From Thermoproteota archaeon (GTDB taxonomy: Archaea; Korarchaeota; Korarchaeia; Korarchaeales; JAOZGB01): a stretch of 64,000 nt of DNA. Made by a program: the position numbers and the translations under genes. The stretch spans positions 32,001 to 96,000 of the forward strand of contig JAVCBU010000012.1 in the NCBI GenBank assembly GCA_037917685.1. The letters run 5' to 3'. This document shows, in pieces, positions 1,370 to 12,294 of this stretch. The notes beneath the pieces are model-generated. The model saw nothing but the letters and a program-made list of their open reading frames with translations, was not told the DNA's origin and made no database searches. Numbering within the stretch: the stretch's first letter is position 1; every line of letters begins with the position of its first letter.

Positions 1370-1712
1370 TCATAATTTTCTTCTAAGTCTGTTCAAGGCT
1401 TCTTCGTATCTTTCATCCTTTTAGACCATTCTACCAACTTTTTACATGGAAATGTCTCACATTGATAGCAGTATTCTAATCCTTTAGTGTCCACACAACA
1501 TTTAAGGATCCAGCATTCTGGAGACCAATGTTCAGTCCTACTTCCTTTGCAGCCTGAGCACCTAACATCATCCACTCTTATTTCTATGTTCCTCTCTCTT
1601 CTGAACCACTCTACTATTGCTGGGCGACTTCAGAGTTATTTGAGGCTTGGAAAATTTTGCATTCATCACATATTATCACACAAGCTCCTATCATATGGTA
1701 GTTTTCGGTCAA
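1370..1712 (-). pseudogene. DUF3795 Cys-rich protein with two frameshifts
   Basis: Three frames join to MIGACVIICDECKIFQA / IVEWF..CSGCKG..ECWILKCC..YCYQCETFPC / DERYEEALNRLRRKL; GGTGA RBS before TTG. Confidence 0.7.
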
Positions 1713-7148: not shown

Positions 7149-7449
7149 CCTCCACTGTTAGAATTGGGACAGTGGAGGATTTTAAGATTATGCTGGCCCA
7201 CAGCCTAGAGATAGTAACAAAAGTCAAGGGTAACGTTGACATTCTGCTAACAGGCCACACGCATGGCGGCCAGGTCTGTCTTCCCCTCATAGGGCTGGTC
7301 TACGTGCCTTCAAGGCTTGGAAAGAAATATGTATCAGGCCTCTACAATGCTGGTGGAATAATAGTTTATGTTAACAGGGGTCTAGGTGGAGTTTCATGCC
7401 GGTCAGGGTTAACTGCAGGCCTGAAGTCACGGTGATAGATTTCTGCTGA
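7145..7449 (+). pseudogene. 5'-truncated, frameshifted YkuE-like metallophosphoesterase
   Basis: Only the C-terminal motifs LAH, GHTHGGQV, YVNRGLG remain; shifted frame continues PVRVNCRPEVTVIDFC. Confidence 0.75.
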
Positions 7450-8242: not shown

Positions 8243-8350
8243 TTGAAGTATACCACAGATTCTAAGCTTGCATCAAAGCTCGAAGAGCTTTTAGGAGAGA
8301 AAAGGTAGCCGACCAGGAATGTATTCTTCCGTCTTACTCAATGATTTCAT
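8243..8350 (+). pseudogene. Possible N-terminal remnant of an FAD-linked oxidoreductase
   Basis: TATA and GGGGG RBS, then LASKLEELLGE/(frameshift)KVADQECILPSYS, resembling FAD_binding_4 N-termini. Confidence 0.3.
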
Positions 8351-8383
8351 TAAATATATTTAGTTTTATCACAGAATAGTTAA

Positions 8384-8393
8384 ATTTATATAG
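8384..8393 (+). promoter_or_regulatory. TATA box of the structured RNA at 8415
   Basis: TTTATATA centred ~26 nt upstream of the G at 8415. Confidence 0.65.
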
Positions 8394-8414
8394 GCTACAG
8401 GTTATCTATTTATT

Positions 8415-8570
8415 GGGCGCCGGAATAGCTGGCTACAAACCCTTGATATAAGCGTACTACAATAAGACGGTTATCCTTAGAACGATGTTATCCGCTGCAG
8501 GCTTGGAACAACATTTTAAGTGGTTCAACCAGCCTGCGGCAGCCTCAGGATGCTTCCGGCGCCCACATCT
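8415..8570 (+). ncRNA. Unannotated structured RNA, H/ACA-like terminal architecture with large looped-out insert
   Basis: GGGCGCCGGAA(8415-8425) pairs with TTCCGGCGCCC(8554-8564), followed by ACA and a T-rich tract; GCTGCAGGCT(8494-8503)/AGCCTGCGGC(8531-8540) stem with a G-U pair valid only on + strand. Confidence 0.75.
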
Positions 8571-8689
8571 CTTTATGATAGGATCGCTGGGACAGGTTTC
8601 TAACTGCATGTTTCTTCAGGACTGGAACTTTGAAGTTAATGGCACACAGCACATGCATGCAACGAATATGCATTTCCTATAAGGATGTA

Positions 8690-8767
8690 CAGGCCTATCG
8701 AGTCCTGAATGCGGCTGGTTATAAGATTGTAGGATGTTCAGGTGGTTCCGTGCGTGTTTCAATCTGA
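8690..8767 (+). pseudogene. Remnant of NifB/NifX-family protein
   Basis: QAYRVLNAAGYKIVGCSGGSVR resembles the family C-terminus; no intact ORF. Confidence 0.4.
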
Positions 8768-8837: not shown

Positions 8838-9101
8838 TTGAGGTGTCTAGTTACTGGTGCCTCCGGATTCATCGGTGGTCATCTTGTGGAGAAGCTTGTC
8901 CGTGACGGACATGAGGTTAGAGCGCTGGTCAGACGGACTAGTAATGTTAGCCTGCTTAGAAATCTTGGTGTAGAACTTGTATACGGGGATATTACAGTCC
9001 CAGAAACATTAAGGCCTGTTGTTAAAGACGTAGATGTGGCATGGAGGACACAGTTAAATGGTATAGGGATAACGGGCTTCTGCAAGGGTGACGAGAAGTG
9101 A
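8838..9101 (+). pseudogene. 3'-truncated NAD-dependent epimerase/dehydratase
   Basis: Rossmann VTGASGFIG...GDIT...DVDV, then unrelated sequence; 87 aa vs ~320 expected. Confidence 0.75.
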
Positions 9102-9508
9102 GGATTCTCATGTGGCACCTCACAAGTTTCAGGTTCAAACCTAAGAGTAAGGGGAGGACAAGTGTTCTGGGGGAGAAAAGGACTGTTGAAGCTGAGAACT
9201 GCCTTCTAGTCTTCTGCATGGTGGAGAAAAAGGACGCTGAGGGTATCTCAAGCGTTGTCGGAAAGGCTTGCAGGGATATAAGAGAGCAGATGTTAAGAAT
9301 AAAAGTGGATACTGTGGTGTTGCATTCGTTCGCCCACCTGTTCGGAGAACCAGCAAGCCCAGATGTAGCCCTGAAAATTTTAAAGCTGATGGAAGAGATA
9401 CTTCTGCAGGACGGTGTAAAAGTTTTGAAAACGCCTTTCGGATGGTTCGGTGAACTTGAGATTAAGGCTAAAGGTCACCCATTATCGAGAGTGGCGAGGA
9501 AATATTAG
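9098..9508 (+). CDS. Stand-alone archaeal-type threonyl-tRNA synthetase editing domain
   Basis: MRILMWH, VEKKD, FAHL, TPFGW, KGHPLSRVAR motifs. Confidence 0.88.
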   Translation: MRILMWHLTSFRFKPKSKGRTSVLGEKRTVEAENCLLVFCMVEKKDAEGISSVVGKACRDIREQMLRIKVDTVVLHSFAHLFGEPASPDVALKILKLMEEILLQDGVKVLKTPFGWFGELEIKAKGHPLSRVARKY

Positions 9509-10707: not shown

Positions 10708-12294
10708 TTGTTTAGGGCTCCACGTGGTATGAGGGATATCGTAGGGGAGGAAATGGATTTTTGGTGTTGGGTTGAAGACACAGTGAGGTGTGTTTTTGAG
10801 AGTTTCGGATATAAGCGGGTTGAAACCCCGATATTTGAGCATTTTGACCTTTTCGCCCTTCGTTCGGGTGAGGAGATTAGAAATAGAATGTTTGTGTTTA
10901 GGATTGATGAGGGGGAGGTCGCCCTTAGACCTGAGATTACGGCGTCGATTGCAAGATTGGTCTCCTCAGGTCTTGAGGGTGCTCTACCCTATAGGCTCTA
11001 CTACATTGGAAGATGCTTCCGATATGAGGAGCCGCAGTCTGGAAGGTATAGAGAGTTCTGGCAGGCGGGTGTTGAGCTTGTGGGAAGCGGTAGACCGGAG
11101 GCTGATGCTGAACTATTAATTCTTGCCTACGAGGTTGCCGAGAACGTCGGGCTTCGAGACTTCAACCTTAAGATTGGCGATATGAGCATTATCAGGGGGT
11201 TACTGGAGGACTTTAATGTGCCGACTGAGGTGCAAAATAGGATAATTACACCGTTGGATAAGCTTTCAAGTAGTACTGACAGGCTTAGGGCGTTTCTCAC
11301 AAAGGTTAGGAGAGAGGGAAAGCTTGACAGCTTGGAGGTTAAAGAGCTTGCTAGGATAGCTGATAGCCTCAGAATGTGGAGGATTAAAGAGGCTGAGAAG
11401 ATTTCAGCCGGGTTATCGAAGATTCCACGTGAGCACTGGGAATTCGTAGAGGAGGATCCAAGAATATATCTTCTTGAGGAGTTAAATAGCCAAGGAAAAA
11501 CCAGGGAGCTCGCGAACTTTATAGCTGATACTATTGAAGGGCTTAGGAAGGCTTTAATGTTGGAATGGGCATATAACGGGGTTGATACTGTTAGTGGAAA
11601 ATACTTTCTGGATCCAAAGGCCTCAAGCATGTTGTTCGACCTGATAGGGATTTCGGGTGCTCCTTCGAAATGTATCTCCAAGGTCGACGCATTGGTAAAG
11701 GATCTGAAGAGGGCAGCAGACTCTGTAGAGAGATTCGAAACGATTATAGAGCTTGTAGAAGAGGCCGAATTAAGGTTTACTGTTGACTTTGGCCTTGCTA
11801 GGGGCTTGGAGTACTATACTGGAATGGTTTTTGAAATCGACTATCCCGGGCTTGGAGCTGAAAAGCAGATCTGCGGTGGAGGCAGGTATGACCAGTTAAT
11901 ACAAGAGTTTGGAGGACGTCCTACCCCAGCTCTAGGATTTGGTTATGGCTTGGACAGGCTCGTGCTTGCAGCCATGGACTCCAATTTAAAACCAGCGGTT
12001 CCAAGTAAAAGGCTTTTCCTAGTCCCTATAAGTCCAGACGTGGCTGGATATGCTCTAAAGGTCGCTAGGATGCTACATCACGTAGTAAATCTAACATTTG
12101 ATCTCAAGATTAGAGGTGTCAGAGAGGGATTATCCTATGCTTCAAAGAAGGGTTACAGGTACGCAGCTATCATTGGCAGGTCTGAAAAGGAATACGGAAA
12201 AGTTACTATCAAGGATCTTCAGAGTGGTATGCAGGAAACTATACCACTTGACGGAGTCATAGACTACTTGGTGTCAAAAGATGAGGAGAATTAA
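10708..12294 (+). CDS. hisS: Histidine--tRNA ligase with ~100-aa internal insertion
   Basis: PRGMRD, LRPEIT, FRYEEPQSGRYREFWQAGVE, RGLEYYTG, GGGRYD, GFGYGLDRL plus C-terminal anticodon-binding domain; GAGGTGA RBS. Confidence 0.9.
   Translation: MFRAPRGMRDIVGEEMDFWCWVEDTVRCVFESFGYKRVETPIFEHFDLFALRSGEEIRNRMFVFRIDEGEVALRPEITASIARLVSSGLEGALPYRLYYIGRCFRYEEPQSGRYREFWQAGVELVGSGRPEADAELLILAYEVAENVGLRDFNLKIGDMSIIRGLLEDFNVPTEVQNRIITPLDKLSSSTDRLRAFLTKVRREGKLDSLEVKELARIADSLRMWRIKEAEKISAGLSKIPREHWEFVEEDPRIYLLEELNSQGKTRELANFIADTIEGLRKALMLEWAYNGVDTVSGKYFLDPKASSMLFDLIGISGAPSKCISKVDALVKDLKRAADSVERFETIIELVEEAELRFTVDFGLARGLEYYTGMVFEIDYPGLGAEKQICGGGRYDQLIQEFGGRPTPALGFGYGLDRLVLAAMDSNLKPAVPSKRLFLVPISPDVAGYALKVARMLHHVVNLTFDLKIRGVREGLSYASKKGYRYAAIIGRSEKEYGKVTIKDLQSGMQETIPLDGVIDYLVSKDEEN

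What the first reader, a model, noticed from the sequence alone, without database searches (positions are those of the whole stretch)
8384..8575. Promoter-driven ~155-nt structured RNA: H/ACA-like ends with a 59-nt one-sided looped-out segment
Seen: TATA box, then an 11-bp GC-rich terminal helix (8415-8425/8554-8564) followed by ACA and a T-rich tract. GGCT(8431-8434)+GCTGCAGGCT(8494-8503) pair continuously with AGCCTGCGGCAGCC(8531-8544), so a 14-bp helix is interrupted on one strand only by 59 nt (8435-8493) containing two GTTATCC copies. A G-U pair fixes the + strand. Known: archaeal H/ACA guides such as Pyrococcus Pf9 have a ~9-bp GGGC..CGG lower stem, a pocket and a 3' ACA, but are ~60-70 nt with a K-turn/K-loop, which I cannot find here. 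Inference: an atypical H/ACA-type RNA carrying an extra guide, template or scaffold domain, or a new ncRNA class. The pocket strand GAUGCUU could pair with the LSU rRNA motif AAGCAUC (recalled, unverified). It looks intact while its neighbours are decayed.
Basis: partly seen in the sequence, partly recalled or inferred. Interest (0 to 1): 0.85.

Follow-up and report, generated by a model that had tools for sequence, protein, structure and literature searches.

The report
Orphan archaeal small RNA gene
A roughly 150-base structured RNA gene with its own promoter is real and is conserved in one related uncultured archaeon, but it does not fit the pseudouridine-guide (H/ACA) class and its job is still unknown.

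Summary
The sequence features are there as described: TATA box, 11-bp GC-rich terminal helix, 10-bp internal hairpin, ACA. The + strand folds better than all 200 shuffles (z -3.88).

One homolog turned up, in metagenome locus L124, whose HisRS is 91% identical (104.7 bits, E 1.5e-21).
- Similarity starts at the BRE/TATA, which sits exactly 22 nt before the helix in both, and stops two bases after the 3' arm.
- Identical columns: 122/156 in the RNA, 23/60 upstream, 38/228 downstream.
- Stem positions are 42/42 identical against 80/114 elsewhere (p 6e-6).

This is a selected, separately transcribed sRNA gene.

The H/ACA reading fails.
- ACA is ACG in the homolog.
- No K-turn was found.
- The 4-bp helix extension and the apical helix break.
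- The second GTTATCC copy is lost.
- rRNA complementarity is no better than for shuffled guides.

Rfam 15 gives no hit. RNase P, SRP and 5S RNAs lie elsewhere. The gene is single-copy, and was not found in 150 other archaeal genomes.

Verdict: a lineage-restricted orphan sRNA of modest interest, function unknown.

The parts
8379..8392 (+). Archaeal-type promoter: GTTAAA (BRE-like) plus TTTATATA (TATA box). The TATA box ends exactly 22 nt before the first G of the RNA.
   Evidence: L124 has GTAAAA+TTTATATA with the same 22-nt spacing, although only 6 of the 18 columns 8397-8414, between the TATA region and the RNA start, are identical. That these hexamers fit the BRE consensus RNWAAW is recalled, not tested.
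8415..8566 (+). The conserved RNA gene, about 150-152 nt. Conservation runs from the first G of the helix to the AC just after it.
   Evidence: R1 matches L124:2191-2347 at 104.7 bits, E 1.5e-21. 122 of 156 columns are identical, against 23/60 upstream and 38/228 downstream. z -3.88 here and -4.54 in L124.
8415..8425 (+). Terminal helix P1, 5' arm (GGGCGCCGGAA).
   Evidence: 11 Watson-Crick pairs with 8554-8564, identical in both sequences.
8426..8493 (+). 68-nt, mostly unpaired 5' strand of the big internal loop (the non-stem sequence as a whole is 42% GC). It holds conserved blocks CAAACCC 8436-8442, TATAAGCG 8447-8454 and TTATCCTTAGAAC 8471-8483.
   Evidence: Blocks are identical in L124 and the stretches between them vary. 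The hairpin predicted inside this region is not kept in L124 (my reading). GC figure.
8494..8503 (+). Internal hairpin P2, 5' arm (GCTGCAGGCT).
   Evidence: 10 pairs with 8531-8540, including the U8496-G8538 wobble. Identical in both sequences.
8504..8530 (+). 27-nt hairpin loop. The 5' half, TTGGAACAA(C/T)ATTTT, is conserved and the 3' half is variable. It contains a U-rich A-U4-5-A tract.
   Evidence: The predicted apical helix GAAC/GTTC loses 2 of 4 pairs in L124, while one 2-bp mini-helix shows C-G to U-A.
8531..8540 (+). Internal hairpin P2, 3' arm (AGCCTGCGGC).
8541..8553 (+). 3' joining strand (AGCC TCAGGATGC). GATGC is conserved, and L124 has a 2-nt insertion before it. 8547-8552 could pair with loop 8512-8517 (candidate 6-bp pseudoknot).
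   Evidence: The candidate pairing is kept through two one-sided changes, which is weak evidence.
8554..8564 (+). Terminal helix P1, 3' arm (TTCCGGCGCCC).
8565..8567 (+). ACA after the helix. Only AC is conserved (ACG in L124).
8568..8576 (+). Weak T-rich tract TCTCTTTAT, a possible terminator. Not conserved.

Best explanation
Window 8415-8566 (+) is a real, separately transcribed small non-coding RNA gene of about 150 nt. It is restricted, as far as could be searched, to one deep-branching lineage of uncultured, probably thermophilic sediment archaea.

Shown:
- a BRE/TATA promoter at a fixed 22-nt distance from the RNA;
- two GC-rich helices under strong purifying selection: an 11-bp helix that joins the 5' and 3' ends, and a 10-bp internal hairpin;
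- conservation that begins and ends exactly at the element.

Inferred:
- The terminal helix closes the molecule and protects its ends.
- The 68-nt 5' strand of the internal loop and the 27-nt hairpin loop stay largely single-stranded. The stems are 79% GC and the rest 42% GC.
- These open strands display short invariant blocks (CAAACCC, UAUAAGCG, UUAUCCUUAGAAC, UUGGAACAA, AUUUU, GAUGC) that serve as recognition surfaces.

Most likely the RNA acts in trans, as the RNA part of a small RNP or as a base-pairing regulator. The U-rich loop tract resembles an Sm/Lsm-type binding site (recalled). It is not an H/ACA pseudouridylation guide.

Confidence by layer: functional ncRNA gene about 0.8; not an H/ACA guide about 0.9; trans-acting scaffold or antisense role about 0.4. 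The overall figure, 0.6, is for a functional orphan sRNA that is not H/ACA.
For: - Structure: both the MFE and the centroid give the two helices. z is -3.88, with 0/200 shuffles as good. The homolog gives z -4.54, also 0/200.
- Homolog: L124:2191-2347, R1 104.7 bits, E 1.5e-21. It sits in a contig whose HisRS, metallophosphoesterase, ThrRS editing domain and epimerase are 91, 88, 80 and about 86% identical in protein.
- Boundaries: identical columns are 122/156 in the RNA, 23/60 upstream, 6/18 between TATA and start, and 38/228 in the downstream spacer, which has 149 gap columns.
- Promoter: BRE-like plus TTTATATA, with identical 22-nt spacing in both.
- Selection on stems: 42/42 stem positions are identical against 80/114 elsewhere, Fisher p 5.7e-6.
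- Strand: a conserved U-G wobble, the promoter orientation, and a better z on the + strand.
- Independence from neighbours: the upstream genes differ between the two loci, and the downstream epimerase is intact in L124 (340 aa) but truncated here. The RNA is kept in both. The epimerase has its own conserved promoter block (60/75 identical).
- Not a known RNA: Rfam gives 0 hits at gathering score in 64 kb and 0 at E<=10 in 8300-8700. In the L124 region the only hit is a chance CRISPR-DR match at E 1.1. ARAGORN finds 0. RNase P, SRP and 5S RNAs are elsewhere in the genome.
- Not mobile: single copy in the genome, and 0 hits in plasmids, phages and viral contigs.
- The genome's structural RNAs are 59-67% GC against 45% for the genome, so only the two GC-rich stems are likely to be stable at growth temperature.
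Against: - No RNA-seq run holds the locus, so there is no evidence on transcription, ends or abundance.
- There are only two sequences. All 21 pairs of the two solid helices are invariant, so there is no covariation. Conservation of an inverted repeat alone cannot separate RNA from DNA function.
- There is no conserved oligo-T terminator.
- No partner or target was found. Complementarity of the open strands to 23S, partial 16S, 5S, tRNAs, SRP and RNase P RNAs and to neighbouring genes is at the level of shuffles.
- The RNA's 78% identity is no higher than expected for coding DNA of neighbours that are 80-91% identical in protein.
- No match in 36 genomes of the sister family or 150 relatives in all. 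The family is therefore young or fast-evolving. The same-genus genome G001 is only about 66% complete and lacks the whole neighbourhood, so it is uninformative.
Confidence: 0.6

Rival explanations
1. An atypical H/ACA-type pseudouridylation guide. The 9-11-bp terminal helix would be the Cbf5-binding lower stem, GAUGCUU and UAGCU the two guide strands, and the 59-68-nt strand an added domain.
For: - The lower stem has the right length and type, with ACA immediately 3' in the window.
- If the lower stem is taken as 9 bp and GAUGCUU as the 3' guide, the top pair lies 15-16 nt from ACA.
- The 23S has one AAGCAUC-UA-AGC site at 2885-2896, giving 7+3 pairs.
- GAUGC and UAGCUG are conserved in L124.
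- Nop10 is encoded in the genome (46.9 bits, above cut-off). There is a weak Gar1 match at 21.1 bits, below cut-off.
Against: - ACA is ACG in the homolog, with no ANA at that place.
- No K-turn or K-loop in the upper stem of either sequence. The explicit scan hits only G9A10 inside the terminal helix. In passages of PMC11077068 all six S. islandicus H/ACA RNAs described, classic and atypical, bind L7Ae in vitro, and the K-turn is marked in their structures.
- In the geometry as drawn, the upper stem is 20 nt from ACA.
- In the 15-16-nt geometry, 4 pocket nucleotides (6 in L124) stay unpaired above the target.
- Target scores are not above chance. Strict geometry: best 8 pairs, reached by 111/200 shuffles. 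Relaxed geometry: best 11, reached by 47/300, and the 23S site scores 10.
- The size is about twice that of known single-hairpin guides.
Confidence: 0.07
2. A DNA-level element, not an RNA. It would be either a pair of nested inverted repeats bound by a protein (regulatory or recombination site) or the fixed remnant of a miniature inverted-repeat transposable element.
For: - Both conserved 'helices' are inverted repeats with no covariation.
- The left edge of the element is a synteny breakpoint between the two genomes.
- Neighbouring genes are truncated.
Against: - A BRE/TATA at fixed spacing lies outside the repeat and points into it.
- A conserved U-G wobble would be a C-A mismatch in a DNA cruciform or on the other strand.
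- Invariant blocks lie in the non-repeated 68-nt strand.
- The element is single-copy in the genome, has no flanking direct repeats by eye, and has no match in plasmids, phages or viral contigs.
Confidence: 0.07
3. A cis-acting leader or upstream regulatory RNA for the downstream epimerase / ThrRS-editing-domain genes.
For: Same strand. It lies about 100 nt upstream of the epimerase in L124 and 270 nt upstream here, and this linkage is the only synteny kept on both sides of the RNA.
Against: - A separately conserved promoter-like block (AGGAAATTTAATTATTTACC...) lies between the RNA and the start codon (60/75 identical).
- The spacer between them is unconserved and differs by about 150 nt in length.
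- The RNA is intact although the epimerase is reduced to a fragment of about 70 codons.
- No riboswitch or leader family matches.
Confidence: 0.07
4. A precursor that the tRNA-splicing endonuclease cuts at a relaxed bulge-helix-bulge motif (3-nt bulge UCA / 4-bp GGCU:AGCC / large bulge), releasing or circularising the interior.
For: - In the window alone the topology (bulge on the 3' strand, 4 bp, bulge on the 5' strand) resembles a relaxed BHB.
- The genome is rich in intron-bearing tRNA genes.
Against: - In L124 the 3-nt bulge is 5 nt and the 4-bp helix has an uncompensated C-C mismatch.
- The second bulge is 59 nt instead of 3.
- The terminal helix itself is perfect, with no bulges.
Confidence: 0.03

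Closest known systems
Classic archaeal single-hairpin H/ACA guide sRNAs (e.g. Pyrococcus Pf9, recalled; S. islandicus sR115/sR435, passages of PMC11077068)
   Same: A stand-alone small RNA gene. A GC-rich helix of about 9-11 bp joins the two ends and is followed, in the window, by ACA. Above it is an internal loop, then a further helix.
   Different: - About twice the size.
- No K-turn or K-loop.
- ACA is not conserved.
- The internal loop is extremely lopsided (68 nt against 13 nt).
- The ruler is 20 nt in the drawn geometry.
- No rRNA or tRNA target above chance.
Atypical H/ACA-like sRNAs of Pyrobaculum and Sulfolobus (passages of PMC11077068; Bernick et al. 2012 seen only as cited there)
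   Same: [quoted passage not shown]
   Different: Those RNAs lack the lower stem and bind L7Ae, with a K-turn marked in their structures. This RNA has the reverse: a strong terminal stem and no K-turn.
Lineage-specific trans-acting archaeal sRNAs (title and abstract of review PMC4152357 seen in the search listing)
   Same: An intergenic, promoter-driven RNA of roughly 100-200 nt, narrow phylogenetic range, and single-stranded conserved segments that could pair with targets.
   Different: No target, expression or protein partner is known here. Closing the ends with an 11-bp helix is more typical of RNP RNAs than of mRNA-targeting sRNAs (my judgement).
End-paired RNP RNAs with large internal loops: Y RNAs, 6S RNA (recalled)
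   Same: The 5' and 3' ends are joined in a long stem, with a large internal loop that carries the functional sequences.
   Different: No sequence or covariance-model similarity (no Rfam hit). As far as I recall, these families are not known in archaea. No Ro or sigma-70 context was examined.

Membership tests
Archaeal H/ACA guide sRNA (classic) | Lower stem closing the hairpin, bound by the Cbf5 PUA domain | tested here: met
   An 11-bp perfect GC-rich terminal helix, identical in both sequences.
Archaeal H/ACA guide sRNA (classic) | ACA (ANA) box directly 3' of the lower stem, with the adenines most conserved (passage of PMC7991803) | tested here: not met
   ACA in the window but ACG in the only homolog. 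Caveat: the abstract of PMC7075261 reports that the box can be dispensable for typical single-hairpin guides.
Archaeal H/ACA guide sRNA (classic) | Target uridine / pocket top 14-16 nt from the ACA box (PMC7991803; PMC11077068) | tested here: inconclusive
It becomes 15-16 nt only if 4 pocket nucleotides (6 in L124) are left unpaired above the target.
Archaeal H/ACA guide sRNA (classic and atypical) | K-turn or K-loop with tandem sheared G-A pairs in the upper stem, bound by L7Ae | tested here: not met
   The explicit scan (>=3-bp C stem, 3-nt bulge, GA on both strands, both orientations) finds nothing in the upper stem or loop of either sequence. The only hits use G9A10 inside the terminal helix. 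By eye there is a near-miss, UUG-GA...(C/U)A, at the hairpin loop that lacks the 2n G. The scan is unspecific: 446/500 shuffles give some hit somewhere.
Archaeal H/ACA guide sRNA (classic and atypical) | Bipartite guide complementary to rRNA or tRNA on both sides of an unpaired UN | tested here: not met
   Targets tested: own 23S, the first ~1060 nt of own 16S, own 5S, and the 16S of two relatives. Strict geometry: best 8 pairs, reached by 111/200 shuffled pockets. Relaxed geometry: best 11 pairs, reached by 47/300. tRNAs were not tested in H/ACA geometry. The 3' third of the organism's own 16S is not assembled.
Archaeal H/ACA guide sRNA | H/ACA proteins encoded in the genome | tested here: met
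   Nop10 46.9 bits, above cut-off. Gar1 only 21.1 bits, below cut-off. Cbf5 and L7Ae were not searched.
tRNA / tRNA-like gene with introns | Cloverleaf with D, anticodon and T arms after intron removal | tested here: not met
   ARAGORN finds 0 in the window. No Rfam tRNA match at E<=10. The T-loop-like GGTTCAACC is not conserved in L124.
RNase P RNA, SRP RNA, 5S rRNA | Match to the Rfam covariance model | tested here: not met
   No match at this locus. Each family has a full-score copy elsewhere in the genome.
MITE / mobile element | Many dispersed copies with terminal inverted repeats and target-site duplications | tested here: not met
   1 full copy in the genome; the other 8 matches are 14-19 nt and at chance level. 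Same position relative to the epimerase in L124. No flanking direct repeat by eye.
BHB-flanked archaeal intron or processing stem | Two 3-nt bulges on opposite strands separated by a 4-bp helix | tested here: not met
   One bulge is 59 nt. In L124 the other is 5 nt and the 4-bp helix has a mismatch.

The most novel reading that the evidence does not exclude
This is the founding member of a new class of archaeal RNP RNA. The molecule is clamped shut by a GC-rich terminal helix, and its ~68-nt one-sided open strand and its hairpin loop present invariant sequence blocks, possibly locked by a loop-to-joiner pseudoknot (8512-8517 with 8547-8552). It would be used as a scaffold or guide by a lineage-specific protein partner. 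Its function would be unrelated to the known archaeal guide RNAs (C/D, H/ACA, crRNA).
Probability: 0.3. Interest if true: 0.55.

Novelty: new member of a known kind. Interest (0 to 1): 0.3.

Why it matters
Uncultured deep-branching archaea have almost no experimentally known non-coding RNAs beyond the universal ones. Here comparative evidence from a single relative is enough to show that one such candidate is a real, selected gene. It also shows that its resemblance to H/ACA guides, a GC-rich closing stem plus ACA, is superficial. That stops a false H/ACA annotation. It also supplies a covariance model (R2) and a defined set of invariant single-stranded blocks that can be used to fish for more members and for partners. 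Because the function is unknown and the range is two genomes, the immediate biological weight is modest.

Tried and rejected
**Known RNA families.** Rfam at gathering score on the whole window gave 0. At E<=10 it gave 0 on 8300-8700. On L124 2100-2450 it gave only a chance CRISPR-DR48 match, E 1.1, partly outside the RNA. ARAGORN gave 0. The tRNA, tRNA-Sec, 5S, SRP and RNase P readings were rejected.

**Homolog searches that found nothing.**
- BLAST in 40 relatives gave only matches of 36 nt or less, E>=0.05.
- R1 in 60 relatives: 0.
- R1 in 21 of the 80 HisRS loci from genome contigs: 0.
- R2 in 37 other genomes of the order gave two matches, E 1.8 and 5.8. On inspection both lack the hairpin.
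- R2 in 150 relatives: 0.
- R2 on 77 further metagenome loci: 0.
- R2 on all 80 genome-contig loci gave one 61-nt chance match, E 0.5.
- Viral contigs with a 20-nt conserved block: 0. Plasmids and phages by blastn: 0.
- The same-genus genome G001 lacks both flanking genes, so it says nothing.
- Synteny through the ThrRS editing domain gave only full-length ThrRS genes in the sister family, about 29-35% identical.

**Expression.** No RNA holder was listed. The only holders are 2 DNA runs that may be the source.

**Targets.**
- H/ACA-style and plain antisense searches against rRNAs, tRNAs, SRP and RNase P RNAs and neighbouring genes were all at shuffle level.
- A 12-nt perfect complement of RNA positions 2-13 to 23S 1550-1561 (blastn E 0.03) lies inside the terminal helix. 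In the overall local-alignment control, 34/300 shuffles reach the observed best score.
- A 17/19 match at C6:1467-1485 lies between convergent tRNA genes, not in the 16S leader.

**Other points.**
- No ORF is conserved, by eye.
- A second promoter-plus-stem locus (C18:64297-64459) reads as coding sequence by eye.
- Literature: searches found nothing on such an RNA. Supplements of PMC11077068 and PMC2377435, which list guide sequences, were not opened; they could hold unusual H/ACA examples.
Full report
**Observation**

- A BRE-like GTTAAA (8379-8384) and TTTATATA (8385-8392) lie 22 nt before GGGCGCCGGAA (8415-8425).
- That arm pairs perfectly with TTCCGGCGCCC (8554-8564).
- ACA follows (8565-8567), then a weak T-rich tract.
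- Inside, GCTGCAGGCT (8494-8503) pairs with AGCCTGCGGC (8531-8540), including one U-G wobble.
- GGCT (8431-8434) can extend that helix by pairing with AGCC (8541-8544), which leaves 59 nt looped out on one strand.

RNAfold gives this as both MFE and centroid: -57.4 kcal/mol, z -3.88, 0 of 200 shuffles as good. The minus strand gives z -2.75, with 2 of 200 shuffles as good.

Such a layout is rare in this genome. Four real loci have a perfect GC-rich 9-bp stem followed by ACA. Two have a TATA-like box at the right distance from such a stem, and the other one reads as coding sequence by eye.

**Organism and context**

The window is G000:C1:32001-96000, from a 1.81-Mb, 22-contig archaeal genome with 44.8% GC and many intron-bearing tRNA genes.
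- Its rRNAs, RNase P RNA and SRP RNA are 59-67% GC, which suggests a thermophile (inference).
- The closest HisRS genes in the species-level genome collection are only 43-47% identical. They sit in MAGs labelled Bathyarchaeia or Thermoproteota.
- The held taxonomy places the genome in a small phylum with 42 other species-level genomes.
- Upstream neighbours are a zinc-ribbon membrane protein and a DedA/VTT protein. Downstream are an 87-codon N-terminal fragment of an NAD-dependent epimerase, a free-standing ThrRS editing domain, a metallophosphoesterase and HisRS.

**Not a known RNA**

- Rfam 15 gives no hit in the 64-kb window at gathering score and none at E<=10 around the element. ARAGORN finds nothing.
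- RNase P RNA, SRP RNA, 5S, 23S and a partial 16S are found elsewhere with full scores.
- The element is single-copy.
- It has no match in plasmid, phage or viral collections.

**The homolog**

BLAST and a single-sequence covariance model (R1) found nothing in 40 and 60 relatives, nor in 21 HisRS loci from genomes. The same-genus genome lacks the whole neighbourhood.

A scan of metagenome contigs with HisRS returned one locus, L124, whose HisRS is 91% identical and which has 6 kb of upstream flank. R1 matches L124:2191-2347 on the + strand at 104.7 bits, E 1.5e-21.

In L124 the downstream order is intact epimerase (340 aa), ThrRS editing domain (80%), one extra gene, metallophosphoesterase (88%), HisRS. 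The upstream genes are different.

Aligning the two intergenic regions shows that similarity is confined to the element.

| Region | Identical columns |
|---|---|
| Upstream | 23/60 |
| TATA region | 9/13 |
| Columns 8397-8414, between TATA and RNA start | 6/18 |
| RNA | 122/156 |
| Spacer to the epimerase promoter | 38/228 (149 gap columns) |
| Epimerase promoter and start | 60/75 |

The TATA box ends exactly 22 nt before the first G in both. The homolog also folds far better than its shuffles: z -4.54, 0/200 as good.

The element is therefore a unit under selection, bounded by its promoter and the 3' arm of the terminal helix. It is kept independently of what lies on either side.

**What is and is not conserved inside**

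- All 42 positions of the two solid helices are identical, against 80/114 elsewhere (Fisher p 5.7e-6). With two sequences this is purifying selection without covariation.
- The 4-bp GGCU/AGCC extension suffers an uncompensated G-to-C change. A shifted register, GCUG (8428-8431) with CAGC (8540-8543), is intact in both but also invariant.
- The predicted apical helix GAAC/GUUC loses 2 of its 4 pairs. One C-G to U-A double change occurs in an adjacent 2-bp mini-helix.
- The hairpin predicted within the 59-nt strand is not kept.
- The first GTTATCC becomes ATTATCC and the second is lost.
- The 3' joining strand gains 2 nt.
- Invariant blocks remain in the unpaired strands: CAAACCC, UAUAAGCG, UUAUCCUUAGAAC, CCGCUGCAGGCUUGGAACAA, AUUUU, GAUGCUU.
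- A possible 6-bp pairing of loop 8512-8517 with 8547-8552 survives two one-sided changes. This is weak evidence, because transitions opposite G or U always preserve pairing.
- The stems are 79% GC and the rest 42%. At 75-85 C the terminal helix and the hairpin stem, with short adjoining pairings, persist in the predicted fold.

**H/ACA test**

The defining features come from passages of PMC7991803 and PMC11077068: a lower stem, an ACA/ANA box, a 14-16-nt ruler, a K-turn bound by L7Ae, and bipartite complementarity around an unpaired UN.

- **Lower stem:** present.
- **ACA box:** ACG in the homolog.
- **K-turn:** none in the upper stem of either sequence.
- **Ruler:** the drawn pocket is 20 nt from ACA.
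- **Targets, strict geometry:** the best rRNA target has 8 pairs, matched by 111/200 shuffled pockets.

With a 9-bp lower stem it gives a 7+3-bp interaction at a 15-16-nt distance. That requires 4-6 unpaired pocket nucleotides above the target. Under such relaxed rules 47/300 shuffled guides do at least as well as the best observed site.

Nop10 is encoded and a weak Gar1 match exists, so the machinery is probably present. The abstract of PMC7075261 shows that ACA can be dispensable. H/ACA is therefore not strictly excluded, but it fails three defining tests. I give it about 0.07.

**Other readings**

- **tRNA or tRNA-Sec:** rejected. There is no cloverleaf, and the T-loop-like motif is not conserved.
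- **BHB-processed precursor:** rejected by the homolog.
- **MITE:** rejected. The element is single-copy, orthologous in position, and its promoter lies outside the repeat.
- **Leader of the epimerase:** unlikely. The epimerase has its own conserved promoter, the spacer is unconserved, and the RNA outlives the gene.
- **DNA-level palindrome:** cannot be fully excluded without covariation or a transcript. The oriented promoter, the wobble pair and the invariant non-repeated blocks argue against it.

**Mechanism**

- **Shown:** a conserved promoter, two conserved GC-rich helices, and exact boundaries.
- **Inferred:** the RNA is made as a separate transcript of about 150 nt, and its ends are clamped by the 11-bp helix. 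Its 3' end is set by weak termination or by trimming back to the helix. The 68-nt open strand and the loop act as recognition surfaces for a protein or for RNA targets.

No target was found above chance in rRNAs, tRNAs, SRP or RNase P RNA or nearby genes. The loop tract A-U4-5-A resembles an Sm-type site (recalled, untested). No RNA-seq run holds the locus, so expression is untested.

**Verdict**

This is a genuine but orphan, lineage-restricted archaeal sRNA gene. It was found in 2 genomes and not found in the 150 others searched. The H/ACA label should not be applied. The find is novel in that no family covers it. Its interest is modest until a partner, a target or a wider distribution is found.

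Noticed in passing
G000:C1:431435-431693 (-) and C1:431739-434800 (-), outside the window: The RNase P RNA gene (144 bits) lies 45 nt downstream of the 3' end of the 23S rRNA gene on the same strand, which suggests co-transcription. The 16S gene sits on another contig (C6:27-1088, cut by the contig end).
   Followed up: no
window 8838-9101 and 9098-9508: The NAD-dependent epimerase is reduced to its first ~70 codons plus an unrelated tail; L124 has the intact 340-aa gene. Its promoter block is still conserved. The fragment's stop now overlaps the start of the free-standing ThrRS editing-domain gene, so the remnant may survive as an upstream ORF that drives that gene.
   Followed up: partly
window 9098-9508; G000:C1:305611-306003: The genome has a free-standing 136-aa ThrRS editing domain (PF08915, 131 bits) in addition to a full-length ThrRS with its own editing domain (616-aa frame). 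In the 37 other genomes of the order only full-length ThrRS matched (13 genomes, about 29-35% identity).
   Followed up: partly
window 7172-7435: An 87-aa ORF containing GHTHGGQ, which I recall as a metallophosphoesterase motif, has no Pfam hit at E<=0.01. It looks like a C-terminal gene fragment, a second decayed gene next to the RNA.
   Followed up: no
G000:C6 about 1576-1667 (-): There is a tRNA-like gene with a GGGTTCAAATCCCGC T-arm, apparent extra insertions and a T-rich trailer, read by eye. It is not in ARAGORN's list, and several standard anticodons are missing from that list. Unusual introns probably hide tRNA genes in this genome.
   Followed up: no
window 8416-8427 versus G000 23S positions 1550-1561: A 12-nt perfect complementarity links the 5' arm of the terminal helix (plus 2 nt) to the conserved 23S segment UAUUCCGGCGCC (blastn E 0.03). 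The RNA segment is conserved in L124. It is buried in the terminal helix, and the overall alignment score is not above shuffles.
   Followed up: partly
window 10708-12294: HisRS is 528 aa long. The closest relatives, 43-47% identical and labelled Bathyarchaeia or Thermoproteota, align over nearly the whole length. More distant archaeal HisRS loci match over only about 1.2 kb of DNA, which suggests a lineage-shared insertion.
   Followed up: no
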